Origin: Candidatus Desulfovibrio intestinigallinarum
GTDB lineage: Bacteria; Desulfobacterota; Desulfovibrionia; Desulfovibrionales; Desulfovibrionaceae
Length of the DNA stretch: 49,278 nucleotides
Assembly (NCBI GenBank): GCA_019114565.1
Contig: DXFI01000177.1
Location: 1-49,278, forward strand
Reading direction: 5' to 3'
Shown in pieces: positions 9,137 through 43,450 of the stretch. The translations under genes and the position numbers were made by a program. Every line of letters begins with the position of its first letter. The stretch's first letter is position 1. The notes beneath the pieces were generated by a model, which worked only from the letters and a program-made list of their open reading frames with translations, ran no database searches and had not been told where the DNA came from.

Positions 9137-10252
9137 ATGGGCGAAGTCCTTTCTATGGATGTTCCGCCGCAAAAGCCTTCCCGGAACCGGGCACGCCTTT
9201 TGCTGGCCGTGGCTGTTCTTTTGCTGGCTCTGCTTCTGGCCGGTCTGGCGCTTCTCTGGCTTTCCGGTTCTTCCGTGCAAAGCCGCTGGGCCGCGCTGGA
9301 TGCCGAAAGTCAGATGCTGACGGCGCCGTACAGCGCGCCTGTGGAAAATGTCTTTGTAAACGAAGGAATGCGCGTCAGCAGCGGGCAGGCGCTGCTGCGT
9401 CTGAGCAATGAGGATCTGCTGCGCCGTCAGGAGCAGGCAGGGCACGATCTGCGCGCGCTGCGTTCCGACATGGTGCAGCGCGAAATGGCCACGGAGCGCC
9501 TGCAGCGCGCACAGGCGGCATGGGAAGGCATGGTGTCGCGCCTGACCATCGCCCGGCATGAGGAAGAGCTGCGTTCCCGGGAGCGCGAACAGAAAAGCGT
9601 GGAGCATGTGCGGGCCCAGCTGGCGTTGCGCGGCATGGCTGCTTCCGGCGGCCCCGCCTATGACAAGGCCGCCCGCAAGGAAGCCGAGGCGCGCGCGGCT
9701 CTGGAGCAGGCGGAAAAGCGTTTCGAGCAGGCCAATCAGGAGCGGGCCGAGGCCGAGCGGGATGTGATGGCCCTGCGTGACGAAATTCAGAAGGCCAAGC
9801 GTGTGGCCGGTCCCGCGGCGGGGGTGAAGACGCCTTCCGGCAGCAGCCTGCCGTCGGTGGACGGCGTGCTGACCAGCGCGCAGGACGGGCTTGTGCTGCA
9901 TGTGCAGACCGCGCAGGGGCAGACCGTACAGCGGCAGCAGCCTCTGATGGAAATTGTGCCTTCTTCCAGCGAATACTGGTGGGTTCTGGCCTACTTCCCG
10001 GCGGAACAGGCCGGGCTTTTGCGGCAGGGCATGCCCTGCCGTGTCATTATCGGCGGCAGCAAGGAAAGTCTGGACGGCGAAATAGCCGAGCTGGCTCCGG
10101 CGGAGAAGCTGAACATGCCGGATCAGCGGGACGGTCCGCGAGAAAATGTCGTTCCCGCCAGAATCCGTATCCCCGGCGTGGACATGCTGGCCAGGGGCTG
10201 GAAGCCGGGGCAGCCCGCCGTGTGCGAAGTGGAAACAGGATTTTTCCGCTAG
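9137..10252 (+). CDS. HlyD-family membrane fusion protein
   Basis: N-terminal TM, lipoyl half-motifs (V.EG.RV..GQ.LL; G.V...GQ.V..QQPL) around a long coiled coil. Confidence 0.8.
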   Translation: MGEVLSMDVPPQKPSRNRARLLLAVAVLLLALLLAGLALLWLSGSSVQSRWAALDAESQMLTAPYSAPVENVFVNEGMRVSSGQALLRLSNEDLLRRQEQAGHDLRALRSDMVQREMATERLQRAQAAWEGMVSRLTIARHEEELRSREREQKSVEHVRAQLALRGMAASGGPAYDKAARKEAEARAALEQAEKRFEQANQERAEAERDVMALRDEIQKAKRVAGPAAGVKTPSGSSLPSVDGVLTSAQDGLVLHVQTAQGQTVQRQQPLMEIVPSSSEYWWVLAYFPAEQAGLLRQGMPCRVIIGGSKESLDGEIAELAPAEKLNMPDQRDGPRENVVPARIRIPGVDMLARGWKPGQPAVCEVETGFFR

Positions 10253-10418
10253 AGTCTGTTAACACTAAATGGTTCTTCTGGGGGGAAGGCCCCGTCCTTC
10301 CCCCAACGCGCTTTTTCAAAGAGGGTACAGGCCATGCGGCAAGTACCTTTCAGCGGCTCTGTGTAGCCTTCATTTTCTATTTGTTTGAAATAAATAGAAG
10401 ATTAGTGTTAACAGGCCC
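10252..10418 (-). mobile_element. Family B MITE-like element (short form)
   Basis: TIRs GAGTCTGTTAACACTAA / TTAGTGTTAACAGGCCC with TA on both sides; reverse-complement match to 23380-23663. Confidence 0.88.
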
Positions 10419-10526
10419 TAGAGCGTTTCAACCGCTTTCTGAACAGGATGCGCGGGAGCGAATACGTCCGGGGGAAGGGCAAGGTGCCTCTTCCCCCGTA
10501 TATCTTTGAGTTTGAGGCTTTTCTGT

Positions 10527-12524
10527 ATGGAACAGTTGCATCAGCTTGTCATTCTCTTTCTGCTGGCCATTGCGGTCAGCCTCGTATGCAACAAGTTGAA
10601 AATCATGCCTATGGTGGGTTTTCTGCTGACGGGCGTACTGTGCGGGCCGTCCATGCTGGGGCTGGTGGAAGATCAGGAGATCATCAACCAGATCGCCGAC
10701 CTGGGCGTGGCCATGCTGTTGTTTACCATTGGTATCGAATTGTCTGTGGATGCGCTCAACAGGCTCAAGCGGCCTGTGTTCATGGGCGGCAGCCTGCAGA
10801 TCGGTCTGACGGTGGCCTTTATTGCGCTGGCCTGCTGGCTGTACGGCACAAGCATACAGTCGGGGATTTTCTGGGGGTGTCTGGCGGCTTTGTCCTCGTC
10901 GGCCATCGTCCTGCAGATTTTCCAGAAGAAGGGGTACACCAGCACGCCTGTCGGACGTATCACGCTGGCCATCCTCGTTTTTCAGGATATCATGGTTGCG
11001 CCCTTCATGCTGTGCGTGCCGCTGCTGGGCGGAGCCCTGACGCTTTCGCTGACGGAGGCGCTGTTTGCCGTGGGCAAGGTTATTGCCGTTCTGGGCGGCG
11101 TCCTGCTGGCTGCGCATTTCGGACTGGCCCGGCTCATGGATGCCGTCATGGCGACGCGGGCGCGGGAAATTCTGCTGATGACGACGCTGGCCCTCTGCTT
11201 CGGCATCGCTACGCTTACGGAATCCCTCGGGCTTTCCTTTTCGCTGGGCGCCTTTCTGGCAGGTCTGCTGCTGGCCCGTTCGCCATACAGTATGAGCGTT
11301 GTTTCCGGCGTGCTGCCCTACAGGGATATTTTTCTCAGCCTCTTTTTCATCTCCGTGGGCATGATGCTGGATGTGGGCTTCTTCCTGAACCACATGGGCG
11401 CGATTCTGGCTTTTACCGCCGTCTTCATCATTCTGAAATTCCTGCTTTCCCTGCCGGCGGCGCTCATGCAGGGCTATCCTCTGCATACGGCTGTTTTCAG
11501 CGGCCTTGCGCTGGCGCAGGTCGGGGAATTTTCCTTTGTGCTGGCAGCGTCCGGTCTGACTTACCATCTTTTCAGCATGGAGGAGTATCAGCTCTTTCTG
11601 GCGGCCAGCGTGCTGACCATGATGCTGACGCCGCTGCTCATTTCCCTTGCGCCGCGCATCAGCGGCGCCATCATGCACTGGCGCAAGATCAAGGAAGAGG
11701 AAGAAAAGCCCTGTTCCGGCTGCGCCCTGCAGGATCACCTGATTATTGTGGGCTTCGGCATCAGCGGCAAACATCTTGCGCTGGTGGCAAAGGAATCCGG
11801 CATTGCCTACAATATTCTGGAAATGAATCCTGATACGGTCAACCGCTACAAGGATTCGGAACCCATTATGCACGGCGATGCCTCTCAGCCTGTTGTGCTG
11901 GAGCATCTGGGCGTGGACAAGGCCCGCGTGCTGGCCATCATCATTTCCGATCCGGCGGCGGTGCGGGCCATTACCGAAGAAGCCCGCAGCATGAACCCCA
12001 ACCTCTTTATTGTGGCGCGCACGCGCTTTGTGACCGAGGTTGCGCCGCTGCGGCGTCTGGGCGCGGATGTCGTCATTGCCGAAGAGTTTGAATCGTCCAT
12101 CGAGGTCTTCAGTCAGGTTCTTTCGCGCTATCTTGTGCCTCAGCAGAATATCGAGGCCTTTTCCGCGCGTCTGCGGCGGGCTAATTACCGCATGATCCGG
12201 CGCATGAGCGCCGGGGTCAGCAATCTTTCGGAAATGGTGGACCGGCTGCCGGAGATCGGCGTTCAGGCCATACGCCTGTGCGCGGATTCGCCCCTGTGCG
12301 GCGTGCGGCTCTGCGAAAGCAATTTGCGGCGCGGCCACGGCCTGACAGTGGTGGCCATTCTGCGCGACAAGGAAATGATCGCCACACCGGACCCGGAATG
12401 TACCCTGAACGCCGGGGACGTGCTTTATCTGTTTGCCTCGACGGAAAAGCTGCTGGCTGCCCGGCCGCTTTTTGGCGGGAGTGTGCAGGAAGGCGCTGGC
12501 ACGCATCAGAGTCAGCCCGCATAA
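10527..12524 (+). CDS. CPA2 cation/H+ antiporter (Kef-like) with TrkA-N and TrkA-C domains
   Basis: LLFTIGIE, LSSSAIV, LVFQD, FFISVGM and QVGEFSFV motifs; IIVGFG..G RCK-N domain; C-terminal RCK-C domain. Confidence 0.9.
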   Translation: MEQLHQLVILFLLAIAVSLVCNKLKIMPMVGFLLTGVLCGPSMLGLVEDQEIINQIADLGVAMLLFTIGIELSVDALNRLKRPVFMGGSLQIGLTVAFIALACWLYGTSIQSGIFWGCLAALSSSAIVLQIFQKKGYTSTPVGRITLAILVFQDIMVAPFMLCVPLLGGALTLSLTEALFAVGKVIAVLGGVLLAAHFGLARLMDAVMATRAREILLMTTLALCFGIATLTESLGLSFSLGAFLAGLLLARSPYSMSVVSGVLPYRDIFLSLFFISVGMMLDVGFFLNHMGAILAFTAVFIILKFLLSLPAALMQGYPLHTAVFSGLALAQVGEFSFVLAASGLTYHLFSMEEYQLFLAASVLTMMLTPLLISLAPRISGAIMHWRKIKEEEEKPCSGCALQDHLIIVGFGISGKHLALVAKESGIAYNILEMNPDTVNRYKDSEPIMHGDASQPVVLEHLGVDKARVLAIIISDPAAVRAITEEARSMNPNLFIVARTRFVTEVAPLRRLGADVVIAEEFESSIEVFSQVLSRYLVPQQNIEAFSARLRRANYRMIRRMSAGVSNLSEMVDRLPEIGVQAIRLCADSPLCGVRLCESNLRRGHGLTVVAILRDKEMIATPDPECTLNAGDVLYLFASTEKLLAARPLFGGSVQEGAGTHQSQPA

Positions 12525-12558
12525 CGTCTTTAACCGGTCCGCCGGTCTTTGAAAAAAG

Positions 12559-12609
12559 AAAGCGCCTGTGCGGCAACAGACATCTTCTGTCGCCGCACAG
12601 GCGCTTTTT
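12559..12609. terminator. Long hairpin terminator
   Basis: AAAGCGCCTGTGCGGC..GCCGCACAGGCGCTTTT. Confidence 0.8.
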
Positions 12610-12632
12610 GCGGTGCGAGAGCGTTTTTCCTT

Positions 12633-12779
12633 TAGAGTGTTTCAACTTTGAAAAAGGTGAAACGCGAGGCGGCGGCACAGCGCCGCCCGGCCCAGAGAGA
12701 GTGGAAAAACCGCGTTTTTTCCGCGAAACGAAGGCCGTATGGTTTGAAATGCACAGCGTTCCAAACTGCAATTGCTCCA
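12633..12779 (+). mobile_element. Family A element, full length
   Basis: TAGAGTGTTTCAACTTTG...AAACTGCAATTGCTCCA; aligns with 46812-46959. Confidence 0.9.
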
Positions 12780-13005
12780 AGGCCTGTTAACACAAATTTT
12801 AAAAATAATTTCAATAGATAGGATAAACATGCTGTACACACGCCACTTGTTTTTGGTGGCGGAGTCGCTTCGTATTCCAGACTCTTTCCCCGATAAAAGC
12901 GCGCTGGGGAAGGGATGGGGGCTTGGGGGGAAGGGAAACCCCTCTCGCCCTAGCAGAGGGGTTTCCCTTCCCCCCAAACAACTTACGAAGAGTGTCAACA
13001 GGCCC
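12780..13005 (+). mobile_element. Family B element abutting a family A end
   Basis: AGGCCTGTTAACAC ... GTGTCAACAGGCCC+TA; internal GGGAAACCCCTCT/AGAGGGGTTTCCC hairpin. Confidence 0.88.
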
Positions 13006-13664
13006 TAGTTGCGGAAGCGTTCCACGCGGGCCGGAGGCAGATTGCAGAGAGCAAAGCGGCAGACATCTCTGTCGCAGCCGGTCTGCTGGAGAATGGAGGG
13101 GCCCCAGAGGGCATAGGTAAACTGAATAATGACGCCGTTCCGCGCAACGGAACGCATCTGTTCGATGACGGCGGCGCGCAGTCCGTCCGGGAAGCTGACA
13201 AGCGGCAGTGAAGACACAATGGCGCGAACGTGCGTGCGCGCCAGCCGGGGGGCGAGCAGTTCGCCCAGACGGGCGGCGTCCCCTTCCAGAACCTGAAGGC
13301 GCGGGAAACGGCGACGCAGGGCCCGGCAGAACTCGGGCGCATACTCCACCAGAATCAAATCCTGCGGGTCAATGCCGCTTCGCAGCAGGGCGCGGGTAAC
13401 GGAGCCGGTACCCGGGCCAAGTTCCACCACCAGACCGGGGCCCGGAGGCACAAGGGCCGCCATGCGGGCTGCCAGCATGGGGCCGCTGGGAGCAATGGCT
13501 CCTATGGAACGGGGATGTTCGGCCCACTGCCGGACAAAGGTTCCGCCTTCTTTCAGACAGGACAGCATCGCGGCCGTATGCGTACCGGCATGGCGCAGGC
13601 CAAAGCCTACGGCGCGGCGCAGAAGTTCGATTCGCGGGGAAAGGAAGGGGGCGGAAGGGGACAT
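13005..13664 (-). CDS. Class I SAM methyltransferase, PmtA/OlsG-like lipid N-methyltransferase
   Basis: GAIAPSG..LA..MA, VVELGPGTG, GDA and IVSSLPL motifs; start codon uncertain. Confidence 0.8.
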   Translation of the reverse strand: MSPSAPFLSPRIELLRRAVGFGLRHAGTHTAAMLSCLKEGGTFVRQWAEHPRSIGAIAPSGPMLAARMAALVPPGPGLVVELGPGTGSVTRALLRSGIDPQDLILVEYAPEFCRALRRRFPRLQVLEGDAARLGELLAPRLARTHVRAIVSSLPLVSFPDGLRAAVIEQMRSVARNGVIIQFTYALWGPSILQQTGCDRDVCRFALCNLPPARVERFRN

Positions 13665-13948
13665 GCAGACTCCAGAATTCGGGCGTGTAGGTGAAAGCTG
13701 ATATGCCGCGGCCCGGGAAGGAGCCCGTGCAGCGGCTGGAGAGCATCATGCCGCATGGAGCGTCGGGAAAGCGTCGGGATGGTATGATTGTTGGGGCGGC
13801 TCTGCGGGAAGGATGCCGCCTGACGCGGGGTGATTACGGGAAGATATGTACGCAGAGCGGCGACAGTTGCCGACGGTTGCTGTTTTCCGCAGTTCCCGGC
13901 AGGCGCAGGGGCTCTGCCGGGAGCCGCAGAAAGTGTGGAAATGAGAGT

Positions 13949-16130: not shown

Positions 16131-16209
16131 GTAAGGTGCTGTGTCGCAAGAAAGCTCCCGGAGCCGGACGACCGGATCGAACCGGCCTTCCTGATCCTTG
16201 CGGAAGACC

Positions 16210-16355
16210 TGAGCGTTCTGCTTTTGAGAAAGACAGAGCGCGAGGCGGCGGCACAGCGCAGCCCGGCCCTGAGTGAGCGGAGCTCTGCGTTTTTTCCGCG
16301 AAACGACAGGCCGTATGGTTTTGAAGCGCAACATGTTTCAAACTGAAATGCTCTG
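16210..16355 (+). mobile_element. Family A element in the MATE 5' leader
   Basis: GAGCGTTCTGC...AAACTGAAATGCTCTG. Confidence 0.88.
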
Positions 16356-17757: not shown

Positions 17758-17869
17758 ATATCAGAGCTTCCGGCTGTCCCGTTGCGGTTTCCGGGGACGG
17801 CGGACAGGGGAAGAACCGGAGCCTTTCCTTCCGCTGTGTTTTTGTGCTCCGGGCGTTCTCCAGTAGGCG

Positions 17870-18075
17870 GGTTTTGGGGAAGATAGGGGAGTTTGAGGGG
17901 GAATCTACGGGAACGCCCTTCCTCGCTTCGCTAGGGAAGGGCTGGGCCCTTTTTGCCGCAAGCAGCGACCCAACGGGCGGCCGAAGGCCGTGTCCGTTAG
18001 GCGACGCAGGAGCCTTACGGACATCGACAGCAGAGCAAAGGGGTTTCTTCCCCCTCAAGCGTATGAATCCTGAAC
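17870..18075. repeat. Third repeat type carrying a 60-bp hairpin module shared with family B
   Basis: TTGAGGGGGAA..TTCCCCCTCAA outer stem; 17976-18035 matches 23554-23613 at 57/60; left boundary uncertain. Confidence 0.7.
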
Positions 18076-19455
18076 TTAGGAAAGCTCCTGCCCGTTTTCC
18101 TCTCTGGCTTCGGCGAGGCGGCTTGCCAGCTTGGCATCGGCCTTGTCGAGGCTCCATTCGCCGGGCAGGGGGGCGGTGAGTTCCGCCTTGTCGCCCACAT
18201 AGGGATTGAAATAGCCGTAACGCAGCCAGGGGCACAGGCGGCGCAGACGCTTCATGAAGACGGCAAGGCTCATGGACGGGCCGTGGGAGATGCCCTCCAT
18301 AAGATTCCAGTACCAGTCGGGATCGATATTCAGATTGCGCCACTGAATCATGCTGACGCCGTTTTCTCCCACAAGGCGGGCGAGGGCTTCCAGTTCGGCT
18401 TCCGTGTCTGTGATGCCGGGGAAGAAAAGCAGGTTGAGCGAGACGAAGATTCCGTGGCGGCGGGCCACGGCAATGGACGTGCGCACGTCTCCGAAGCTGT
18501 AGCCGTGGGGACGGTAGTAGCGTTCATAGACTTCGGGACGGGCGGAGTTGAGGCTGACGCGCAGACTGGTCAGACCGGAGCGGGCCAGCGCCTCCACGGC
18601 CGAGGGACGCGAGGCATTGCTGTTGCAGTTGACGGTGCCCACACCGCCGCCGGAACGGAACAGACGGACGCTTTCGCAGAGCAGATCGGGATTCATGAGG
18701 GGATCGCCCTCGCAGCCCTGACCAAAGGAATAGACGGGGCGTTCCAGTTCCCGACCCATGTGGAAGCGCATGACTTCGGCCAGTTCTTCGGCCGTGGGCG
18801 TGAAGGCCAGACGGCACTGCGGCGTGACGGCCAGCGGAGAATCCTTTTCCTGCTCGGAAATACACCCTACGCAGCGCGCATTGCAGGAACGGGAGCTGGG
18901 CAGGGGAGCCTCAAAACGGCCGAGCGCGAAGTTGCGGGCCGCCGGACAGTCGTAGCGATAGACGCAGTTGTCGATGATGTGGCGGGCAAGGCGGTTTTGA
19001 GGCAGGGCCGCCAGCACGTCCCGCGCGCCGCGTTCAATGCGGGCCCGGGGGATATGGCGGAACTGCTGCCGCGGATCGTCGTCCACTTTTCGCGCGCAGA
19101 TATAGAAGCGGCCGTGGGCAAAGCCGACGGCGCCGTAGGCAAACAGAGGCAGCAGGGGGGCGTCGTCGTCCTGCTCGTAGGCCGGATGCGCTGAAAGCGT
19201 GTGGGCGGGGGCGGCAAAGGCCGCCACGGCGACCTCGTCTCCCGCCACAATATCGCCGCTTTGCGGATCAAGGCCCACGGCGCGCCGTCCGGGCAGGAGA
19301 AACAGTTCGCTTTCTTCGGGCAGGGGCATGAGCTCGTCCGGGCGGGGCAGGCCCCATTCCCCGCCGCGCCGACAGACCATCAGCAAATCGGGGTCGTCGA
19401 AAATGTTGCCCTGGGCGTCGGCCATGACCATATGGGGAACTACGGGATGAGCCAT
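18076..19455 (-). CDS. Radical SAM protein of unknown function
   Basis: CNARCVGC (CxxxCxxC), SFGQGCEGDP and RVSLNS motifs; AAGGAG RBS. Confidence 0.88.
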   Translation of the reverse strand: MAHPVVPHMVMADAQGNIFDDPDLLMVCRRGGEWGLPRPDELMPLPEESELFLLPGRRAVGLDPQSGDIVAGDEVAVAAFAAPAHTLSAHPAYEQDDDAPLLPLFAYGAVGFAHGRFYICARKVDDDPRQQFRHIPRARIERGARDVLAALPQNRLARHIIDNCVYRYDCPAARNFALGRFEAPLPSSRSCNARCVGCISEQEKDSPLAVTPQCRLAFTPTAEELAEVMRFHMGRELERPVYSFGQGCEGDPLMNPDLLCESVRLFRSGGGVGTVNCNSNASRPSAVEALARSGLTSLRVSLNSARPEVYERYYRPHGYSFGDVRTSIAVARRHGIFVSLNLLFFPGITDTEAELEALARLVGENGVSMIQWRNLNIDPDWYWNLMEGISHGPSMSLAVFMKRLRRLCPWLRYGYFNPYVGDKAELTAPLPGEWSLDKADAKLASRLAEAREENGQELS

Positions 19456-23100: not shown

Positions 23101-23307
23101 GTGCGCAAGCAGCTGGACTGCAATCTGTCCGTTAAAATGGGCCGGATTCCTCCGTTCCCCGTGCGCGTGTACGGCCCGCTGGACAAGCCGCAGACATCCA
23201 TTGGCGCGGGAACGGCGCTGCTGCGTATTCTGGGCAGCATTGCCGGAAGCGTGGGCGACGTCATCGGCGGTCTGTTCGGCAGTATTGGTCAGCTCATGAG
23301 CAAGTAG
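20119..23307 (+). CDS. AsmA-family protein
   Basis: N-terminal TM, beta-rich repeats (LYGG, CYG) and C-terminal G.I.SG.I.S.D..G.GW.L..V.GPL..P pattern. Confidence 0.8.
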   Translation: MRLLVRRLILAALVCLVLLLSLGVALGVALQTLQRDPQALTQRLTALLPEKSGFSVSLGTVSVRLLPVPRLVASDVSINGPGVRASVAYVVATPSLTGILRGDALPAALTLYHPQITATLPVKSFLAAEEGSGAGGLPPLPSFQVRIQQGQAVLYARDGSALSLVNARCSLRGRGRMLRGSAGFSSLTLYDGGARPLAGLINTSLEGEVPLADWSERETQLRLETQAALPPVLPIMSLALELEGRPADGTVKADVRGSLRVASALVPFGIGGQAECRADEAHNALPGEVTLRGWQLELAEDSARLDGVLRLGAAGELPSLAGHLVAHRLSLTRWLDFARDLPPGLQWALDNITRGEADFELDGKGLRVPRVTARSSGSVFEGSGGVASWAEPVVALDLKAPSVNLGLALPEALGSAPEAPFYVHPPLTSAYDEPGAPSSSISLGFDIRLGAKQLLYGPLRLEDASVRITPGPKKNGLEEGALLAGKAALYGGRLSSETHITGTGQENVYRIDGTVQGVKASDIARDMASFPFASGRCDARLSLESRGLGLDAFLRHLRGSLHADVTQGRFRSGMDSAIRDFARISLDVTPRGGRAVAEGGRGAARLEALWKAHLESPGLEADVQLDGPLIFGGRSRLRTEAAALRGNLHMPPGAALPHGLTAGVAGQCAFNVGTLAFSLQRAALSTLGVEGQGDLHLDGGGRAPSWRGRLHLQCRDLVATLRQATGQSPDLPAPLRRWQVSGNFSGQAGSLAVSGMQARASQITLEGDASLQWKGARPALRFDLVSPHFDLDAFMAAAFPDTGGRNDAPGQSWDLRAMKAFDAEGVLHVQRLTAWKFNLSSLSVPLKLQEGRLRCDAVRANCYGAPLRASVDARFDRGLELALDVKANDIDVERASNDRGGEKAFGGRGSVDLELRQHMTAGGQWASSLNGLWKISLLKGYMQDRGRDGRRRGKPTPITRCSASGNIRSGVIRSSDFFYLGDDLQAQGGGWLHLVRKQLDCNLSVKMGRIPPFPVRVYGPLDKPQTSIGAGTALLRILGSIAGSVGDVIGGLFGSIGQLMSK

Positions 23308-23355
23308 AGCATTTTCAGTTTGAAACGCACAGTGTTTCAAACTGAAAATGCTCTA
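23305..23355. repeat. Family A mini-palindrome (51 bp, perfect 22-bp arms)
   Basis: TAGAGCATTTTCAGTTTGAAAC-7 nt-GTTTCAAACTGAAAATGCTCTA. Confidence 0.92.
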
Positions 23356-23379
23356 AAAGTAGTACTGACATGCCCCACA

Positions 23380-23663
23380 GGGCCTGTTAACACTAATTTT
23401 CTATTCATTTCAAACAAATAGAAAATGAAGACTACACAGAGCCGCTGAAAGGTACTTGCCGCATGGCCTGCACCCTCTTTGAAAGCGCGTTGGGGGAAGG
23501 ATGGGGGGCCTGGGGGGAAGGAAACACCCCTTGCGCGCCAGCCGCGACCGAATGGCGGCCGCAGGCCGTGCCCGTTAGGCGACGCAGGAGCCTTACGGGC
23601 ATCGACAGCAGAGATAAGGGGGGTTCCTTCCCCCCAGAAGAACAATTTAGTGTTAACAGGCCC
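23380..23663 (+). mobile_element. Family B element, long form
   Basis: Perfect 17-bp TIR GGGCCTGTTAACACTAA; TA follows the right end. Confidence 0.92.
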
Positions 23664-25243
23664 TAAAGCCGGACGCGCACGCAGTCGCGCCCCGCGCCCT
23701 TGGCCTGATACAGCGAGGTGTCCGCCTGATGCAGAAGCTCGTCACAGGAAAGCGATTCGCCGGCTTCGCGTACGGCAACGCCGATGCTTACGGTCAGCAC
23801 CCCCGGCGGATTGCCGGGATGGGAAATGGCCAGGGCCCGCACGCTCCGGCGGATATCCTCGGCAATTTCCACGGCGCGATAAACATCGTCATCCAGAAGC
23901 AGCACGCAAAATTCCTCGCCGCCGTAACGGAAAAAGCGACCACTCCCGGCTACGACGCGGGAGCCCTCCTGAGCCACCAGCCGCAAAGCCTCATCGCCCT
24001 TCTGATGCCCCAGCGTGTCGTTATAGGCCTTGAAGTTGTCCACATCCAGAAGAAAGACAGCCAGCGCGCGTTCCTGCGCCACTTCGGCCAGCGCCGCATC
24101 CAGACTGCGGCGATTGGGCACGCCGCAGAGCTCATCCATAAAGCTCATCTGCCGGAATTCGCTGCACTCCTCCGCCAGATTACGGGAATGCGCCTTCATG
24201 CCGGCAATAAGATTCTTCAGGCGGGGCAGCATGCCGAAAAGGGCGTCCAGCTCGCGAATTTTGCTCGGGGGGATGTTCTCGCAGTCGCCGCTTGCCTCCA
24301 GACGCCGCAACTGCTGCGACGCAAGAGAAATGGGGAAAATGACCCTGCGCATAAAGATCAGAAAACAGAGCAGCGAGGAGAACGATATGCCGACAATGGC
24401 ACTCTTGATGACCAGCTCCATGTGCATGCGCTCGGTTTCCATGGTTTCCATGGCCTTTCTGATGGCAAGACTGTTGGCGGCCTCAAAGCGGGAGAACCAG
24501 TCGCGCAGACGAAAGTCTATGGCGGAGCTCAGATTGTAGACGGCCACCTGCGCCTGATGATGACGCTGCCAGACAACTTCCAGCGATTCAACATTCCGCA
24601 TCAAATCCTGGCAGATATTGGTCTTTTTCAGAGAGGATTCCTGACAGTAGGCCAGAGGGGCCTGAAGGCTGGCCAGCGCCTGCCGGAGATGCTCCCTTTC
24701 CGTATCCGGGTCCGGCGTATCATAAGGACTGGAAGCCAGAATCTCGGGGAGGGAGAACACCCTGCCCGAAACAACAGCCAGACGATTTACCCGCCGTTCA
24801 AGGCGGGCAACAACAAAGGCCAGTTCGGCCTTGTACCGGCTGGCCGTGCGCTTGGCGCGCTCCAGTTCGTCCAGAAGGCCCCGCAACGCGCTCGTTTCCG
24901 TGCTGGAAAGCGTGCTGTCCACAAAGGTTCCGTCAAGCTGATGACGCGCATCCGCCAGCGCCTTGCGGCACAAATCCATATTATCTGAAAGTCGGACGCT
25001 CAGAACGGAACGTCGCAAAACTTCAACGCGATTTTGCAGGGGGTGGCGTGCCTGATAATCCGGGAGATAGTCTTCGCTGATGCGCAGAGCGGCCGAATCC
25101 AGTCGGTGCAGGCCGTTGACAAGCAGACCGAACGCTGCGCCCACAAGAAGAAAGACCGGCAGGCTCAACAGAAAGCAGTACCAGTAGACGCCCATCTTCC
25201 GGGGTTTTGCAGGAGAAGGATCAACAGCTGCGGGACCCGGCAT
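23663..25243 (-). CDS. Membrane-bound diguanylate cyclase
   Basis: Two TM helices around a periplasmic domain; DVDNFKAYND.LGH..GD, RYGGEEF, TVSIG and LY.AK..GR motifs. Confidence 0.92.
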   Translation of the reverse strand: MPGPAAVDPSPAKPRKMGVYWYCFLLSLPVFLLVGAAFGLLVNGLHRLDSAALRISEDYLPDYQARHPLQNRVEVLRRSVLSVRLSDNMDLCRKALADARHQLDGTFVDSTLSSTETSALRGLLDELERAKRTASRYKAELAFVVARLERRVNRLAVVSGRVFSLPEILASSPYDTPDPDTEREHLRQALASLQAPLAYCQESSLKKTNICQDLMRNVESLEVVWQRHHQAQVAVYNLSSAIDFRLRDWFSRFEAANSLAIRKAMETMETERMHMELVIKSAIVGISFSSLLCFLIFMRRVIFPISLASQQLRRLEASGDCENIPPSKIRELDALFGMLPRLKNLIAGMKAHSRNLAEECSEFRQMSFMDELCGVPNRRSLDAALAEVAQERALAVFLLDVDNFKAYNDTLGHQKGDEALRLVAQEGSRVVAGSGRFFRYGGEEFCVLLLDDDVYRAVEIAEDIRRSVRALAISHPGNPPGVLTVSIGVAVREAGESLSCDELLHQADTSLYQAKGAGRDCVRVRL

Positions 25244-29786: not shown

Positions 29787-31190
29787 GTGGCCGCGCCCCG
29801 TCCCATTTCCGTCATGCTCCTGAGCAGGAGCGAACGCCTCGCGTCGGTGGACAAGAGAACCCTGCGCGAGGCCGGGGCCATCACCCGATGGAGCATGACT
29901 TCCGGCGTGGAAGCCGCACGCCTGCTGGAAGGGCTCGCCTCCGGTTCCCGGCCGGAAACGCCCGACGTCATTGTCTGCCATCAGGAGCTGGAAGACATGG
30001 ACGGCGAGCAGTTCTGCGCCATGCTCCGCCTGCATCCCCGTCTGGTGTCGCAACCTGTGCTTCTGCTGCTGGCCAATGACGACGAAGCCCAGCAGATGGC
30101 CGCTCTCGGCTGCGGCGCCAGCGCTCTTCTTTCGCGTCCCTATTCGGTGGAAACGCTCCGCCGCCAGCTCCTCTCCCTGACCGCCTATGCCGCCCATGAG
30201 CGCCAGTTGCAGAAGGCCGCGGCCAATACCGACGCCAGCGCCTTCAACGAAGCTCTGGCGTCCTATGCCATGCTGCTCAAACCGGCGCGCCAGCCTGAAG
30301 ACTACTTCAACGCCGCCCTGCGCTGTCTGGAGGCCGGGCAGTGGAATACGGCCATCGCCGCCTTTCAGCGCGCCCTGCGGGCGGAACACATCAAGGGCGA
30401 GGCCGAACTGGGCATTGCGGCCGCCTACAAGGGCAAGGGCGACAGAGCGCGCTACCGGGCGTGGCTGGCCCGGGCCGCCGACACCTTCGCCCGGGCGCGG
30501 CGCTGGCACAAGGCGCGTTCCGCCTATATGCGCCTGCTTCAGGAAAATCCGCGCGCCCGCAATCCCGTCATCGCCGCCGCCCAGCGGCTGCTGCGTCAGG
30601 GAGATGTGGAAGGGGCCGCGCAGGCGCTGGCCGCCGTCTACGACATCAGCGACGATACGACCCTTGCGGACAAGCTGGCGCAAACCTGTCTGGCTTCGGC
30701 TACGGAGGACAGCGAAGGCGACGAGAATGCCGCGCGTATCCGTGCCGAAAGCAACGAACTGATTGCCCGGCTGGAAAATCATCTGAAAGGCGAGCTCGGC
30801 GACGAGGCCCTTTCCTTGAGCAGTGAAATCCGCCGACAGCTGGATGTGCTCGCCCGTCAGCGGGAAGAACGCCTGCGTCAGGCCGCCGAAGAACGCCGCC
30901 GGGAAGCCGCCGCCTTCCAGCAGTGGCAGGAGCGTCAGGCGGCACGCGACGAGGCAGGCGCACGGGAAGACAGCGGCAGCACGCAGCCCGCTCCCGAAGC
31001 GCCGTCATGGCCGCCGCAGGACAGTCTGCCGCAGCCGCCCCCGTATCTGGAGGAAATCGAGCCCCTGTCCCCGCTGCCGCAGCCCGGTACGGACGCGCAG
31101 GACAGCGGCGTCTCCCGCACGCATCTCTTCAACGACGTACTTTCCGTGATTCGCTGTACGTGGCAGCTGTCGCGACGCCGCAGAAAATAG
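29787..31190 (+). CDS. Atypical receiver domain plus TPR protein
   Basis: PDVIVCH..L.DMDG..PVLLL..G.SALL.RPY receiver fold followed by TPR-like helices; GAGG RBS before the GTG at 29787. Confidence 0.72.
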   Translation: MAAPRPISVMLLSRSERLASVDKRTLREAGAITRWSMTSGVEAARLLEGLASGSRPETPDVIVCHQELEDMDGEQFCAMLRLHPRLVSQPVLLLLANDDEAQQMAALGCGASALLSRPYSVETLRRQLLSLTAYAAHERQLQKAAANTDASAFNEALASYAMLLKPARQPEDYFNAALRCLEAGQWNTAIAAFQRALRAEHIKGEAELGIAAAYKGKGDRARYRAWLARAADTFARARRWHKARSAYMRLLQENPRARNPVIAAAQRLLRQGDVEGAAQALAAVYDISDDTTLADKLAQTCLASATEDSEGDENAARIRAESNELIARLENHLKGELGDEALSLSSEIRRQLDVLARQREERLRQAAEERRREAAAFQQWQERQAARDEAGAREDSGSTQPAPEAPSWPPQDSLPQPPPYLEEIEPLSPLPQPGTDAQDSGVSRTHLFNDVLSVIRCTWQLSRRRRK

Positions 31191-31334
31191 CGCGTTCTGC
31201 CCTTGAAAAAGGCGGAACGCGAGGCGGCGACACACCCCCGCCCGGCCCGAAGTGAGCGGAAAAACCGCGTTTTTCCGCGAAACGACAGACCGTATGGTTT
31301 GAAACGCACAGCATTTCAAACGGAAAGTACCCTA
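31188..31334 (+). mobile_element. Family A element
   Basis: TAGCGCGTTCTG...AAACGGAAAGTACCCTA; starts on the stop codon. Confidence 0.88.
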
Positions 31335-31643
31335 AAAAAATACAGCAAAGCGCCAGCAAGAGGACTCGACCGCGCTTCCAAAGCATGCTAGGTTTTTCTG
31401 TCTCCAACAACATGCCCTTGCAGCAGTTGGACACAAACTCCCCCCGACGCATTCATCCGCCGCACGCAACGGAGGATGACGCCTTATATGTCCGTGGTTT
31501 GAAGAGCAGCCCATCCCGGGCTGGTGCCCTGCTTTCCCCGTGCCGACGGCATCATGAACTTTCTGCTCTTCCCTTGACCTCTTGGGTGTCGGCTTCGGCC
31601 GCCCCCGACAGGGATCACGTCTTTCTCGTCAGGAGGAAAATGC

Positions 31644-33062: not shown

Positions 33063-33070
33063 GTTCTCCC

Positions 33071-33210
33071 GGAGCATTTTCAGTTTGAAACGCTGCGCGT
33101 TTCAAACCATACGGCCTGTCGTTTCGCGGAAAAAACACGGTTTTCCGCTCACTTTGGGCCGGGCGGGCCGGACGCCTCGCGTTTTACCTTTTCAAAGTAG
33201 AAGCGCTCTG
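33071..33210 (-). mobile_element. Family A element, reverse orientation
   Basis: GAGCATTTTCAGTTTGAAAC...TTTCAAAGTAGAAGCGCTCTG. Confidence 0.88.
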
Positions 33211-36032: not shown

Positions 36033-36093
36033 GTCTTTTTTTGCATTTTCTTCATTTTTTTATAATCAACTGAAAAACAAAGAAAAAAACGCT

Positions 36094-36741
36094 CTAGATG
36101 CCGTACACGCCGTTCACCTGTAAATTATAGGCTCCGTTTTCGGCCCGCGACAGGCCGATACGCATAAACAGCTGTTCATAGCGCAGCATGCGCGCCTGCA
36201 GTTCGTTGATGGCGTCCGCCCTGTTTTTGAGGCTTGCCCGATACCAGGCCCACTGCATGAGCGGCAGATTGAACCACTCGCGCTCATTCTGAAAAATAAT
36301 GCGGATGATATGCGGATGCGTCGCGCGATTGTCCGGCGTGAGCTTGACCTTGTTGCGCTGGCATTTGGTGGTTGCCAGCGAGCGCAGGACACACTGCTCT
36401 TCCTTAATATAGCGGTTGTCGTGAATGGTCGTCTGAAATTCACGCGCCAGAGAACCGCGACAGGTCAGCGCCAGCGCCTTTTTCAACGCGCCGCCGCTGG
36501 CGGGGGTTGCCGAAATCAGGCGCTCCATGAAAAAGTCTTCCACAAAGGGGGGGGCTCCGTAAAACTCCCCGTCCATCTCCAGCACCGCCCCGGGCAGAAT
36601 TCCCCTGGCAATACAGGCGCGCTCGCTGAGATAAGGCAGGGGACGGACGTTCTGTCCCGTTGCCATGTCAACGCCCGTCACGTACAGCAGGCCTCCCTTG
36701 CCGTAGGGCGTCAAATCCGTCACGATAATGGAGCAGGTCAT
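36094..36741 (-). CDS. Dual OB-fold domain-like protein
   Basis: IIVTDLT..G.....TGVD..TG..VRPLP N-terminus, PxxED, and L.MRIGLSR....Y.LQVNGVY C-terminus; AGGAGG RBS. Confidence 0.62.
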   Translation of the reverse strand: MTCSIIVTDLTPYGKGGLLYVTGVDMATGQNVRPLPYLSERACIARGILPGAVLEMDGEFYGAPPFVEDFFMERLISATPASGGALKKALALTCRGSLAREFQTTIHDNRYIKEEQCVLRSLATTKCQRNKVKLTPDNRATHPHIIRIIFQNEREWFNLPLMQWAWYRASLKNRADAINELQARMLRYEQLFMRIGLSRAENGAYNLQVNGVYGI

Positions 36742-36916: not shown

Positions 36917-37058
36917 GTGAGCACTTTCAGTTTGCACGCGTTGCGTTTCAAACCATGCGGCCTGTCGTTTCGCGGAAAAACGCGGTTCTTCCGCTCATCC
37001 CGGGCCGCGCGGCGCCGAACGCCTCGCGTGCCGCCTTTTTCAAAGGCAAAGCATTTTA
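36917..37058 (-). mobile_element. Family A element, reverse orientation
   Basis: GAGCACTTTCAGTTTG...TTTCAAAGGCAAAGCATTTTA; ends on the rnj stop codon. Confidence 0.85.
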
Positions 37059-38714: not shown

Positions 38715-38895
38715 CAATCCTCTGCTTCGCGCACAAACAGCGCCACAGGGCAGACGCGACGCGCCTGCCCTTTCGTCAGTTCCGGGACGTACTGTCGACC
38801 ATGTCGACAAAAATTTTCCGGGGGCTCACCTGCCCCGGCAGGGCCGCTTTCGAATAGCGGCACCCACACGCGCCTCTGCCCGGCGCGTATGCGTT

Positions 38896-39041
38896 TAAAG
38901 CGTTTTACCTTTGAAAAAAGGTAAAACGCGAGGCGGCAATACAGCGCCGCCCGGCCCGAAGTGAGCGGAAAAACGCGTTTTTTCCCGCGAAACGACAGGC
39001 CGCAGGTTTGGAACGCGAAGCGTTCCAAACTGAAAAACTCA
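38896..39041 (+). mobile_element. Family A element
   Basis: TAAAGCGTTTTACCTTTGAAAAAGGTAAAACGCGAGG...AAACTGAAAAACTCA. Confidence 0.88.
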
Positions 39042-39138
39042 GGGAACGCCGCCCCGCGCGGCAGCGTCATCCGGAGCGCGTTCCTTTCCGGCGTCTGCCG
39101 AGGCAAAGCGGCGCGCCTGCCGCAGCAGCTTTGCGGCG

Positions 39139-40587: not shown

Positions 40588-40746
40588 AGCACCTGCTCAA
40601 ACGTGACGCTGCCCGGGCCGGACAGGGCAGGCGTCAAAGGAACCGTCGTCCCGGAGGTCCGGCAAAATTCACGCGAACCTGTCCGACAGGGAACTCCAGC
40701 GAAAAAACTCGATCAACCACGCCATATTCATGTATTATAGACCCTC

Positions 40747-40776
40747 ACTATACACGGGCAGGGGGGCGCTTGGCAA
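40747..40776 (-). promoter_or_regulatory. Putative sigma70 promoter of the TolC-family gene
   Basis: TTGCCA-18 bp-TATAGT on the minus strand. Confidence 0.6.
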
Positions 40777-40928
40777 TGAGCTTGTCACCTCCGCGTCTCT
40801 AAAATTCATCTTGAAAAAGTCTTGACTTCGCGGCATGCTGCTCCACGATGCGTTTTCGTCCTGTTCCGGCAGGACGCGCCAAATCTGGCAGACAGGCGCG
40901 AACACCGCGCTTTTTTACGGAGACAGGA

Positions 40929-41624
40929 ATGGAATTCAGCTTTTTTACCATGGTTGCACAGGCCAGCCTGGTGGCCCAGTGCGTGCTGGCCTTTCTGCTG
41001 CTCATGTCCGTCGGCAGCTGGGGCCTCATGATTCAAAAAGCCATTGCGCTCAATGCCGCGCAGAAAAAGGCCCTGAGCGGCACAGCCCGCTTCGAGAAGG
41101 CCGCCACCCTGCGCGAAGCCGTGCAATCGCTGGGCTCGGACCCCTCGTCCCCCCTTTACTATGTCGCTCATCAGGGCGTTCTGGAGTTCAACCGCTCCAA
41201 GGAGCTGGGCAACGACAGCGAAGTGGTGGTGGACAATGTGCGCCGAGCTCTGCGGCAGGGCGTGGCCAGCGAAATGTCCCGCCTGCAGAGCTCCCTGTCC
41301 CTGCTGGCAACAGCGGCCAACACGGCCCCCTTCATCGGCCTGTTCGGGACGGTCTGGGGCATCATGAGTTCCTTCCACTCCATCGGGATGCTCAAGACGG
41401 CCTCCCTCGCCACGGTGGCCCCCGGCATCTCCGAAGCGCTGGTCGCCACGGCCATCGGCCTGCTTGTGGCCGTGCCCGCCACCATCGGCTTCAATATTTT
41501 CATGGGCAAAATCGGCCAGGTGGACACCCTGCTGGTCAACTTCGCCGGCGTCTTTCTGAATCGTGTGCAGCGCGAGCTTAACGCCCATCGCCCGGTGACG
41601 CGCACCGGCAGCACGGAGATGTAG
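40929..41624 (+). CDS. tolQ: TolQ
   Basis: APFIGLFGTVWGIM.SF and VAPGISEAL.ATA.GL.VAVPA motifs. Confidence 0.93.
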   Translation: MEFSFFTMVAQASLVAQCVLAFLLLMSVGSWGLMIQKAIALNAAQKKALSGTARFEKAATLREAVQSLGSDPSSPLYYVAHQGVLEFNRSKELGNDSEVVVDNVRRALRQGVASEMSRLQSSLSLLATAANTAPFIGLFGTVWGIMSSFHSIGMLKTASLATVAPGISEALVATAIGLLVAVPATIGFNIFMGKIGQVDTLLVNFAGVFLNRVQRELNAHRPVTRTGSTEM

Positions 41625-41626
41625 TC

Positions 41627-42058
41627 ATGGGAGCCAACGTCGGCGGCGGCAGCAAATTCGTTTCCGAAATCAACGTGACGCCCTTTGTGGACGTCATGCT
41701 CGTGCTTCTCATCATCTTCATGGTGGCCACGCCCATGATGAGTCAGGGCATAGACGTGGATCTGCCCCAGACCAAGCAGGTGGAAGTTCTGCCCACCGAA
41801 TCGGAAAACATGGTCATGACGGTGCGCCAGGATGGTAAAATATTTCTGGACGAATACGCCGTGGAACTGGACGACCTTGAAAACAAGCTCCAGGTGCTGG
41901 TCAAGGAAAAGAACAAGACGCTTTTCCTTCAGGCCGACAAGAACGTCCCCTACGGGACCGTTGTTGACATCATGGGCCGTATCAAGGCCGTAGGCATCGA
42001 AAAGCTCGGCGTCGTGGCCGAAAAGCCCGACGAGGCCCCCGCCGCCGGCCGCCGCTAG
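41627..42058 (+). CDS. tolR: TolR
   Basis: EINVTPFVDVMLVLLIIFMV..P and AD..V.YG motifs. Confidence 0.93.
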   Translation: MGANVGGGSKFVSEINVTPFVDVMLVLLIIFMVATPMMSQGIDVDLPQTKQVEVLPTESENMVMTVRQDGKIFLDEYAVELDDLENKLQVLVKEKNKTLFLQADKNVPYGTVVDIMGRIKAVGIEKLGVVAEKPDEAPAAGRR

Positions 42059-42201
42059 AGCGTTTTATCTTTCCAGAGGTAAAACGCGAGGCGGGGCACA
42101 GCGCCGCCCTGTCCGCAGTGAGCGGAAAAAATTGCACTTTTCCGCGAAACGGAAGGCCGTATGCGTTGAAACGCACAGCGTTTCAAACTGAAAATGCTCT
42201 A
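42056..42201 (+). mobile_element. Family A element, both TA ends intact
   Basis: TAGAGCGTTTT...AAAATGCTCTA, 146 bp. Confidence 0.92.
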
Positions 42202-42385
42202 ACTTCTCCCGCGGGCCTGCCTGTTTTCCGGGCGGGCCGCGCTTCGTCAAGAAACAGACTCCGGAACGCGGGACCTGCCGCCGTTCCCGGAAGACAGGGA
42301 ACCGCAAAACGCCCGTCGTCTCCTTACGGAAAAACGCTGCGGGACAAAGGGCGCGCCCCTGCCCCAGACAGAAAAGACTGCCATC

Positions 42386-43450
42386 ATGAACTGGGCCTCC
42401 TATATTCTTTCTTTTTGCCTTCATGTGCTGATCATTCTGCTGATCTGGCTCTGGCCGGCTTCGCCGCCGGTCAAGCTGGACGCGCCTCCCGTCATGATCA
42501 GCCTTGTGGACGGCGCTCCCGGCGGCAATCGCACGCCCTCCTCCATTCTCGGCGCCGCAGGGCAGCCCACCTCCGGACCCAGGGATTTCGCGGCGCCGGC
42601 GCCCAAGGCCGAAGTTGCCGCCCCGGCGGCCACCCCGCCTCAGGCCGAGCCCATCAAGAGCCCGCCGAAGGAGGCGGCGCAGGATCGTTCGCCCAAGGAT
42701 GAGGTCAAGGAAGCCCCGCGCCCCCGGCCCAAGCCTGACGACAACGCCGCGGCGCTTCTGGCCAAGAAGAAAAAGGAAGAAGAAGCCAAGCGCCGGCAGG
42801 AGGAGCGCGAACGGCAGCAGGCGGAACTGAAAAAGAAGGAAGAGGAACGCCGCGAAGCCGAACAGAAGAAGAAGGAAGAAGAGCGCAAGAAAGCCGAGCA
42901 GAAGAAAAAGGAAGAGGCTCGCAAGAAGGCCGAACAGAAAAAGAAGGAAGAAGAGCGCAAAAAGGCCGAACAGGAACGCAAGGAGAAGGAAAAGGATTCC
43001 GTGGCGGCCGCGCTGCGGGATGCGCGCCGCAAGGCGTCTTCTCGCGTGGAGTCCGGCGACCGCGGCACCGCCGTGGAACAGGCGCTGGCGCAGGCCCGCA
43101 AAAATGCCGGCGGCGACGGCGGCGGAGGCGGCGGCGAAGGCGACGGCCCGGGCGGCGGCGGTCTGAACGAGGTCTACCTCGGGCAGATCATGCTTGCCGT
43201 GCGCCCCAACTGGAGTTTTGCCTCGGCCAGTCGCGCCAACTTTGCCTGCATCGTGCACGTCAGCGTGGACATGAACGGCGAAGTGCAGGATGCCCAGGTC
43301 ACCCAGGGCTCGGGCAATGCGCAGTTCGACGCCTCGGCGGTCAATGCCGTCATCCGCACCGGCAAGGCCGGCCTCTTCCCGAAGCCGCCTTCACCGGAAT
43401 ACTGCGAGGTGGATCTGGTCTTCCGTATGGACGAGCTGTCGCGACGCTAG
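42386..43450 (+). CDS. tolA: TolA
   Basis: S..LH TM motif, K/E/A-rich helix and C-terminal TonB/TolA domain (SG...FD.SA..A); lies between tolR and tolB. Confidence 0.88.
   Translation: MNWASYILSFCLHVLIILLIWLWPASPPVKLDAPPVMISLVDGAPGGNRTPSSILGAAGQPTSGPRDFAAPAPKAEVAAPAATPPQAEPIKSPPKEAAQDRSPKDEVKEAPRPRPKPDDNAAALLAKKKKEEEAKRRQEERERQQAELKKKEEERREAEQKKKEEERKKAEQKKKEEARKKAEQKKKEEERKKAEQERKEKEKDSVAAALRDARRKASSRVESGDRGTAVEQALAQARKNAGGDGGGGGGEGDGPGGGGLNEVYLGQIMLAVRPNWSFASASRANFACIVHVSVDMNGEVQDAQVTQGSGNAQFDASAVNAVIRTGKAGLFPKPPSPEYCEVDLVFRMDELSRR
42821..42973 (+). repeat. 36-bp coding tandem repeat (about 4.25 units, AEQKKKEEERKK)
   Basis: Units start at 42821, 42857, 42893 and 42929. Confidence 0.9.

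What the first reader, a model, noticed from the sequence alone, without database searches (positions are those of the whole stretch)
10250..43450. Repeat elements land on the TA of stop codons and regenerate the stop
Seen: element ends coincide with the stop codons of HlyD (10250), the PmtA-like gene (13005), AsmA (23305), the DGC (23663), the TPR protein (31188), rnj (37056), tolR (42056) and tolA (43448). They probably also coincide for the radical SAM gene (18076) and the dual-OB gene (36094, end remnant AAAACGCTCTA). Both families begin with G after TA, so insertion into TAA or TAG yields TAG. In three cases the distal TA is followed by A (23354, 31333, 42200), which restores the presumed original TAA. 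Inference: a harmless landing site that puts hairpins directly into 3' UTRs and converts TAA stops to TAG.
Basis: partly seen in the sequence, partly recalled or inferred. Interest (0 to 1): 0.75.

Follow-up and report, generated by a model that had tools for sequence, protein, structure and literature searches.

The report
Mini-transposons parked on stop codons
Three families of small non-coding repeats, likely mobile elements, end exactly on the stop codon of about one gene in nine in this gut bacterium and rebuild it, but they occupy stop codons no more often than the same rare four-letter site just downstream, so this is ordinary transposon target choice.

Summary
In the window, element ends sit on the stop-codon TA of nine named genes; the tenth (dual-OB) is unresolved. 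Genome-wide, 211 of 1892 genes end this way, against 0-4 element ends at each neighbouring offset.

There are three families, not two: a 144-bp element sharing 19 terminal bases with an IS630 in this genome, and two roughly 220-bp elements with IS5-type ends. All duplicate TA, prefer Y-TA-R and start with G, so a hit on TAA or TAG leaves TAG and the protein unchanged (74 of 78 orthologues end at the same codon).

The excess is 4-fold over all non-coding TA but disappears when target context is matched: 171 of 601 Y-TA-R stops are occupied against 21 of 83 such sites in the next 30 nt. CTAG and TTAG are very rare, so stops supply about 45% of such sites in short intergenic gaps. About 40% of hits were TAA; TAG dominance predates the elements.

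Sister species often carry different elements on the same stop. No hairpin function was shown. Repeats supplying stop codons are in print (BOX, GTAG REPs), and this scan has noted the pattern in other genomes.

The parts
10250..10420 (+). HlyD stop TAG 10250-10252; family B element 10252-10418; distal TA 10419-10420 shared with a decayed left end of family A
   Evidence: G115 carries A on this stop, so B likely inserted in front of an older A
12778..13007 (-). PmtA-like stop TAG 13007-13005; family B element 13005-12780; decayed junction dinucleotide 12779-12778
   Evidence: G113 has only A on this stop
12633..12779 (+). family A element 12635-12777 stacked behind the PmtA B element; outer TA 12633-12634
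17861..18078 (-). radical SAM stop, now TAA; decayed family C element (left boundary approximate)
   Evidence: G113 and G003 carry A-type ends and TAG here
23305..23356 (+). AsmA stop TAG; 47-bp palindrome built from the right end of family A (23307-23353); distal TAA 23354-23356
23378..23665 (-). diguanylate cyclase stop TAG 23665-23663; family B element 23663-23380; decayed distal dinucleotide 23379-23378
31188..31335 (+). receiver/TPR-like gene stop TAG; family A element 31190-31332; distal TAA 31333-31335
   Evidence: empty TAA site with matching downstream sequence in G113
36085..36096 (-). dual-OB gene stop TAG followed by 8 bases resembling an A end; remnant or native sequence, unresolved
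36919..37058 (-). rnj stop, now TAA; decayed family A element 37056-36919; distal TA lost
   Evidence: TAG plus A in G113 and G115, TAG plus B in G003, TGA without element in G107
42056..42202 (+). tolR stop TAG; family A element 42058-42199; distal TAA 42200-42202
   Evidence: TAA without element in G003 and G107
43448..43502 (+). tolA stop TAG; truncated left end of family A
   Evidence: TGA without element in G003 and G107
46812..46959 (+). reference family A copy not on a stop codon (60 nt after the pal stop, behind a native terminator-like hairpin)
33070..33210 (-). family A copy not on a stop codon, behind a native terminator-like hairpin at 33034-33057
16209..16355 (+). family A copy not on a stop codon
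35695..35825 (+). family A copy not on a stop codon
38896..39044 (+). family A copy not on a stop codon
49002..49278 (.). family A copy (minus strand, 49146-49004) abutting a family B left end at 49148; not on a stop codon

Best explanation
These are three families of miniature inverted-repeat elements, likely moved in trans by IS630 and IS5-family transposases, that are flanked by duplicated TA in a Y-TA-R context and start with G, so an end that lies on the TA of a TAA or TAG stop reads TAG and leaves the protein unchanged. Stops collect so many of them because Y-TA-R is very rare in this GC-rich genome and stop codons supply close to half of the sites in short intergenic gaps; per site, a stop is occupied no more often than the same motif just downstream (shown). 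CTAG and TTAG erode to CCAG/CTGG/TCAG at element flanks (shown); in a stop codon those changes would give CAG or TGG and lose the stop, so selection likely keeps the stop TA as a lasting target (inferred). That would explain why later elements of other families re-insert at the same TA (shown in 7 orthologue pairs; inferred for the rest). Insertions in coding DNA and in tightly coupled operons are likely removed by selection (inferred from their rarity).
For: Target: 79% Y before and 89% R after 319 near-full-length A copies, TA the commonest flank on both sides; empty orthologous sites carry one TA-type dinucleotide where filled sites have two (TPR, window 35553, C9, C98, C49, C287). Occupancy follows the base before the stop: C 107/432, T 64/210, A 29/288, G 11/453, TGA 0/509. 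Matched test: 171/601 at stops, 21/83 at 1-30 nt, 11/64 at 31-60 nt, 51/166 at 61-150 nt. In gaps of at most 300 non-repeat bases, 333 of 746 Y-TA-R sites are stops (45%) and 73 of 183 insertions are on stops (40%). CTAG occupancy is 35/229 at stops and 44/285 elsewhere outside genes; only 69 CTAG lie inside coding DNA. Flanks off stops keep TA in 212 of 546 cases after C and 263 of 378 after T (eight commonest dinucleotides counted), while T inside A is 91% conserved. Partners: IS630 at G000:C286 (NF033545 over cut-off) shares 19 terminal bases with A; an IS5-family element at G000:C185 has the ends of C; the B end motif lies outward of IS5-type transposase genes in 8 of 80 loci from other bacteria. 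A copies on and off stops are equally diverged (76 against 243, median 0.93 both, p 0.79).
Against: With all uncalled DNA as background, a residual excess remains (Y-TA-R null 22.5% against 30% observed, odds ratio 1.6; tetramer-stratified odds ratio 1.9, and 8.4 for the 19 clusters bounded by B or C); I attribute it to missed genes in long gaps (occupancy 2-6% there) but did not prove that. The near-stop control is small (83 sites). 17 G000/G113 pairs carry different ends on the same stop against 9.3 expected, and only 7 of 65 discordant pairs show clean stacking. Ten repeat-free orthologues end in TGA, more than background explains. No Vsr homologue in G000, G007, G107 or G003, so the cause of CTAG erosion is unknown. 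Movement was not observed: no empty site appeared in the rows shown for five other DNA or unlabelled runs. Genes were called with my own model.
Confidence: 0.8

Rival explanations
1. The elements are kept at gene ends because their hairpins are useful in the mRNA (stability, processing or attenuation), so positive selection adds to target availability.
For: A lies in the sense of transcription about 2:1, both on stops (51 against 26) and off stops between co-directional genes (78 against 40). Stem positions show 263 compensated double changes against 115 expected from independent columns (relatedness of copies not corrected). Short convergent gaps are often occupied (16 of 23). 548 of 1892 genes have a repeat starting within 30 nt of the stop. 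ERIC elements affect mRNA stability in an orientation-dependent way (PMC2229807, passages).
Against: Copies on stops are neither older nor better conserved. The orientation bias is the same in older and younger halves (64:30 and 47:24), which fits an insertion bias as well. Family, orientation and presence change between sister species at the same gene. A copies give only weak 5-6-pair terminator-like hits in 30500-47500, and two sit behind native terminator-like hairpins.
Confidence: 0.12
2. The transposases are actively steered to gene ends, for example by terminating ribosomes, RNA polymerase or local DNA opening, beyond the sequence motif.
For: Residual odds ratios of 1.6-1.9 against whole non-coding DNA, strongest for B and C. 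B, C and D ends thin out with distance from the stop (74/601, 13/83, 5/64, 7/166). Repeated use of the same stop in sister species exceeds independence (17 against 9.3, p 0.003).
Against: No excess over matched sites 1-30 nt downstream or in short gaps. TGA stops are never hit (0/509) and G-TAR stops rarely (11/453), as a DNA motif predicts. Off-stop copies show the same motif.
Confidence: 0.06
3. The coincidence is an artefact: any open frame running into a TA-G end is stopped there, so the gene caller assigns stops to element ends that were not stops before.
For: Every element end preceded by TA creates a TAG triplet, and my gene calls come from a self-trained model.
Against: 74 of 78 G113 orthologues end at the same codon; distal triplets end in A or G in nearly all cases, with TAT/TGT in 4 of 107; the share is 11% at every threshold; the named genes match full protein families.
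Confidence: 0.02

Closest known systems
RUP of Streptococcus pneumoniae and other IS630-linked bacterial MITEs
   Same: Short non-coding repeat, hundreds of copies, TA target, terminal repeats shared with an IS630 of the same genome (PMC2229807 and PMC3049150, passages read). Family A fits this.
   Different: Unrelated sequence, 144 bp, GC-rich hairpins, marked Y-TA-R preference; the passages read do not report RUP ends on stop codons.
ISY100 / IS630-Tc1-mariner transposons
   Same: Insert only into TA and duplicate it; the inverted repeats are likely the only cis requirement (PMC2170065, passages read).
   Different: Family A encodes no transposase, and its right end matches the C286 IS630 ends less well than its left end.
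IS5-family elements with a DUF4096 two-frame transposase (IS427 group; group name recalled) and their MITEs
   Same: Family C has the same ends as the C185 element; the B end motif flanks such transposases in other bacteria; TA-flanked, Y-TA-R context.
   Different: B and C are about 220 bp, non-coding and share an internal hairpin module; no element with B ends and a transposase was found in G000.
BOX elements of S. pneumoniae and GTAG REPs
   Same: Repeats that supply the stop codon of the upstream gene without truncating it: 36 genes for BOX (PMC3049150, passage); GTAG REP termini often provide TAG (PMC3733652, passage).
   Different: Different element classes; here TA duplication plus a terminal G explains the rebuilt stop, and three families share the sites.
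ERIC and Correia/NEMIS elements
   Same: TA-flanked MITEs next to genes, co-transcribed, with reported effects on mRNA stability (PMC2229807, PMC3049150, PMC3733652; passages).
   Different: No RNA effect is shown here. The primary ERIC and YPAL papers were not held, so whether they report ends on stop codons was not checked.

Membership tests
MITE (general) | short, non-coding, many dispersed copies | tested here: met
   A: 144 bp, about 550-600 copies by BLAST coverage, 319 near full length; B and C: 151 and 107 ends, paired copies mostly 210-340 bp; no Rfam match
MITE (general) | terminal inverted repeats | tested here: met
   A ends GAGCGTTT / GAGCATTT; B and C have matching ends in 25 and 26 paired copies
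MITE (general) | target-site duplication, shown by empty orthologous sites | tested here: met
   one TA-type dinucleotide in empty sites, two around filled sites; 19 of 49 testable one-sided pairs had alignable distal flanks, 30 did not, 11 more were too short
MITE (general) | mobility | tested here: inconclusive
   presence differs between sister species (65 of 598 G113 pairs); no empty site in the rows shown for other runs of the same species; no assay possible
IS630-derived MITE (family A) | TA target duplicated | tested here: met
IS630-derived MITE (family A) | terminal repeats shared with an IS630 element | tested here: met
   19 terminal bases identical to one end of the 990-bp IS630 at G000:C286; related copies in G113 and G108, 3 of 111 genus genomes
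IS630-derived MITE (family A) | mobilisation by that transposase | not testable with these tools
   needs a transposition assay; the element has two overlapping frames of 135 and 208 codons, activity unknown
IS5-family-derived MITE (family C) | ends shared with an IS5-family element; TA flanks | tested here: met
   828-bp element at G000:C185 has C ends, TA flanks and a DUF4096 / NF033580 match with an internal stop
IS5-family-derived MITE (family B) | ends shared with an IS5-family element | tested here: inconclusive
   no partner found in G000; the same end motif lies outward of IS5-type transposase genes in 8 of 80 loci of other bacteria, two of them the same 820-bp element with both ends
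REP / BIME | 20-40-bp palindrome with a GTAG-type tail and no TA duplication | tested here: not met
   elements are 144-340 bp with terminal repeats and TA duplication; no search for a REP-associated transposase was made
Intrinsic terminator | GC-rich hairpin followed by a U tract in the sense orientation | tested here: inconclusive
   only weak 5-6-pair hits inside A copies in window 30500-47500; B and C copies were not scanned

The most novel reading that the evidence does not exclude
Stop codons work as self-renewing landing pads: mutation strips CTAG and TTAG from the rest of the genome, selection locks them in stops, each hit leaves a TAG that stays a target, and rival IS630- and IS5-type MITEs replace one another there. 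The first bases of the 3' UTR of over a quarter of genes are thereby rewritten between sister species with oriented, co-varying hairpins that tune mRNA fate, and TGA is the escape route.
Probability: 0.15. Interest if true: 0.55.

Novelty: new member of a known kind. Interest (0 to 1): 0.27.

Why it matters
As a mechanism it is expected behaviour of TA-targeting elements that start with G. Its value is as a clean, quantified case: 11% of genes end on an element, the whole excess follows from a four-base motif, and three families from two transposase groups share and re-use the same sites. It shows how hundreds of MITEs fit into a compact genome without altering proteins. If the oriented hairpins proved to change mRNA stability, the clade would offer hundreds of natural 3' UTR swaps between sister species.

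Tried and rejected
(1) 'The elements made TAG the commonest stop': rejected. G007, with no element on any of 82 sampled orthologous stops, ends 37 of 82 in TAG (200 kb of 2.8 Mb sampled), against 823 of 1892 in G000.

(2) 'The elements purged CTAG': rejected as sole cause; CTAG is also rare in G007 (0.087 of expectation against 0.049 in G000).

(3) Very-short-patch repair as the cause of CTAG loss (PMC5591236, passage): no Vsr match in 4 of 5 genomes, present only in G113; not supported.

(4) Older or better-kept copies on stops: no difference.

(5) Strain-level empty sites: contigs of five DNA or unlabelled runs and three RNA-library runs were laid on 29500-47200 and 9000-25300. No joint skipping a named element appeared in the rows shown, but 105 and 60 rows were not shown. 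One RNA-library contig runs from tolA across the remnant to 43890; contigs cannot show starts, ends or strand, so this says nothing on termination.

(6) Footprint test: TAA/TAG discordance in repeat-free G113 pairs is 15 of 88 after Y and 23 of 182 after R, no clear sign of lost elements.

(7) A raised C-TAA to C-TGA rate as the reason for the TGA orthologues: not seen in repeat-free pairs (2 of 28 after C, 3 of 67 after G).

(8) Whether the gene-proximal element of a stack is generally the younger: 28 stacks listed, not decisive.

(9) Rfam: only two tRNAs.

(10) Literature: three searches for phrases on insertion at or regeneration of stop codons and for IS427/IS630/CTAG returned nothing; one search listed five papers not on this point (listing only); one search listed no paper on Desulfovibrio MITEs among the 15 shown of 81; the bioRxiv MITE census 10.1101/2024.01.18.576219 has no occurrence of 'stop codon' (its supplements were not visible and may list these families). 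Three papers asked for by id were not held.

(11) 223 of 1732 raw end hits were dropped as internal hairpin matches before the later counts; orthologue pairs whose ends differed by more than 3 codons were left out but counted.
Full report
Setting. The window is contig C113 of genome G000 (2.9 Mb, 297 contigs, 61% GC). Near-identical DNA occurs in bird and chicken gut runs. No gene caller was available, so I trained a hexamer model: 2261 genes, 1892 with a stop, score above 30 and at least 300 bases.

The observation. Nine of the ten named stops carry an element end starting at their third base; dual-OB has only an 8-base resemblance and stays unresolved. The radical SAM site holds a third family, and both it and rnj read TAA today while occupied orthologues read TAG. 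Genome-wide, 211 of 1509 element ends lie at offset 0 (192 TAG, 19 TAA) and 0-4 at each offset from -6 to +6; 11% of genes are affected at three thresholds. Counting decayed copies, 548 of 1892 genes have a repeat starting within 30 nt of the stop (the same test flags 2 of 82 genes in G007). Exact ends are also on stops in relatives: 62 of 598 orthologues in G113, 33 of 203 in G003, 9 of 109 in G107, 0 of 82 in G007 (1.43 of 3.3, 0.38 of 2.5, 0.28 of 2.9 and 0.2 of 2.8 Mb were fetched).

What the elements are. Family A is 144 bp with several hairpins, about 550-600 copies, and matches in 49 of 111 genomes of the genus. Its left 19 bases are identical to one end of a 990-bp IS630 in the same genome, which has relatives in G113 and G108. 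Families B and C are about 220 bp and share an internal hairpin module. C has the ends of an 828-bp IS5-family element at C185 whose transposase has an internal stop. The B end motif lies outward of IS5-type transposase genes in 8 of 80 loci from other bacteria. A fourth set of ends, D, belongs to a full IS5-family element. All begin with G and are flanked by TA; around A the neighbours are 79% Y and 89% R. Empty orthologous sites show one dinucleotide where filled sites show two, and 81 tandem junctions share a single dinucleotide.

Is it more than TA availability? Against all non-coding TA, yes: 105 of 346 clusters against 7% expected. Against Y-TA-R in all uncalled DNA the expectation rises to 22.5% (odds ratio 1.6; 1.9 when stratified by tetramer). 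That background includes long gaps with 2-6% occupancy, probably holding genes my model missed. With matched sites the excess goes: 171 of 601 Y-TA-R stops are occupied, against 21 of 83 at 1-30 nt, 11 of 64 at 31-60 nt and 51 of 166 at 61-150 nt; after A the figures are 10% and 8%, after G 3% and 3%. In gaps of at most 300 non-repeat bases, stops are 45% of Y-TA-R sites and take 40% of insertions. TGA stops are never occupied (0 of 509). The spike is therefore supply: every TAA or TAG gene has a TA-R at offset 0, and CTAG is at 0.05 of its expected frequency, with 229 copies in stops, 285 outside genes and 69 in coding DNA.

Why stops keep their TA. Off stops, the flank keeps TA in 39% of cases after C and 70% after T, mostly changing to CA or TG, while T inside A is 91% conserved. 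In a stop, those changes give CAG or TGG and would lose termination; I infer that selection preserves the target there. CTAG loss is known in enteric bacteria and credited to very-short-patch repair (PMC5591236, passage), but Vsr was found in only 1 of 5 genomes here, and CTAG is rare in element-poor G007 too. The cause is open.

Consequences. Proteins are unchanged (74 of 78 against 509 of 531). Conversion is real but partial: 38 of 96 readable distal triplets point to TAA and 58 to TAG (11 others). TPR and tolR have empty TAA orthologues; AsmA has none. In 36 one-sided G113 pairs the repeat-free gene ends TAG 15, TAA 11, TGA 10, against 234, 38 and 4 of 276 controls; the TGA share, all after Y, is unexplained. 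TAG dominance predates the elements (37 of 82 in G007). Stops within 20 nt of the next co-directional gene are rarely occupied (4 of 104, against 21 of 87 and 64 of 207 for wider gaps), though gap size is measured after insertion.

Re-use of the same stop. HlyD, PmtA, radical SAM, AsmA, DGC and rnj each carry different families or orientations in different relatives. Of 36 G000/G113 stops with exact ends in both, 17 differ, against 9.3 expected after removing shared ends. In 7 of 65 discordant pairs one genome has a new element in front of the element the other genome has on the stop, as at PmtA; 44 did not show this and 14 could not be tested. Within the species no empty site appeared in the rows shown.

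RNA function. A lies in the sense orientation 2:1 on and off stops, and its stems show compensated changes (263 against 115, not corrected for relatedness). Against a selected role: equal divergence on and off stops, no growth of the bias with age, turnover between species, and only weak terminator-like hits in A. Contigs from RNA libraries cannot test termination.

Comparison with what is known. IS630-Tc1-mariner elements insert into TA and duplicate it (PMC2170065, passages); RUP is a MITE tied to IS630-Spn1 by its ends and TA target (PMC2229807, PMC3049150, passages). Repeats that supply stop codons are in print: BOX in 36 pneumococcal genes without truncation (PMC3049150, passage) and GTAG REPs providing TAG (PMC3733652, passage). 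Searches for an explicit report of stop regeneration by TA duplication found none in the held library, and the primary ERIC and YPAL papers were not held. From memory, not from a call: IS870 needs a CTAG target to complete its own transposase stop. The scan's earlier notes describe what appears to be family A in another genome and the same stop pattern in eight others; they agree with what I tested here and are not evidence for it.

Verdict. Real, striking in scale, and explained by known target choice plus motif scarcity and selection. New members of known kinds. What remains of interest is the multi-family turnover on the same stops, the erosion of CTAG, the TGA excess and the orientation bias. 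Interest 0.27.

Noticed in passing
L006:1399-2388 (G000:C286:14010-14999): The full IS630 itself sits on the stop TA of a transporter gene, but its other flank continues in frame into a different coding fragment at a Tyr codon, which suggests a rearrangement or a misjoined contig.
   Followed up: partly
G000:C20:1-834 and C222: A full IS5-family element (D ends, 23 found) inserts into an internal CTAG of the hairpin module of family B; that internal site reads CTGG more often than CTAG.
   Followed up: partly
window 15092-15268: Hybrid of an A left end and a B end. The gene at 16031-15246 (minus) reads into the B end out of register with its TA and stops inside it; orthologues end at about the same length with other residues.
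   Followed up: partly
window 8896, 12524, 35553: Stops that are empty in G000 (TGA, TAA, TAA) but carry family A in relatives; 35553 is a clean empty site against G113.
   Followed up: yes
window 3481-3513 and 23307-23353: Very short palindromic derivatives made of one end of family A (33 and 47 bp) with their own flanking TA.
   Followed up: no
genome-wide, G000 and G007: TAG is the commonest stop codon (955 of 2219 called stops in G000; 37 of 82 sampled in G007), and TGA stops mostly follow C or T (330 of 509).
   Followed up: partly
families B and C, e.g. window 12895-12980, 17976-18043, 23481-23621: Two families with different IS-type ends share a G/C-rich hairpin module of about 300 copies, often with a nested insert of about 70 bp; its origin was not traced.
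   Followed up: no
window 19818-23347 (AsmA region): Contigs of three other runs differ from the window here at 84-111 positions over 3.2-5.3 kb, more than in neighbouring genes, with a compensating pair of one-base indels at 20365 and 20368.
   Followed up: no
window 2373-2446 (+) and 35901-35989 (-): Two tRNA genes.
   Followed up: no
L002 (G000:C105:37752-38867): An IS5-family transposase region that begins with a family A right end in place of its own left end.
   Followed up: no
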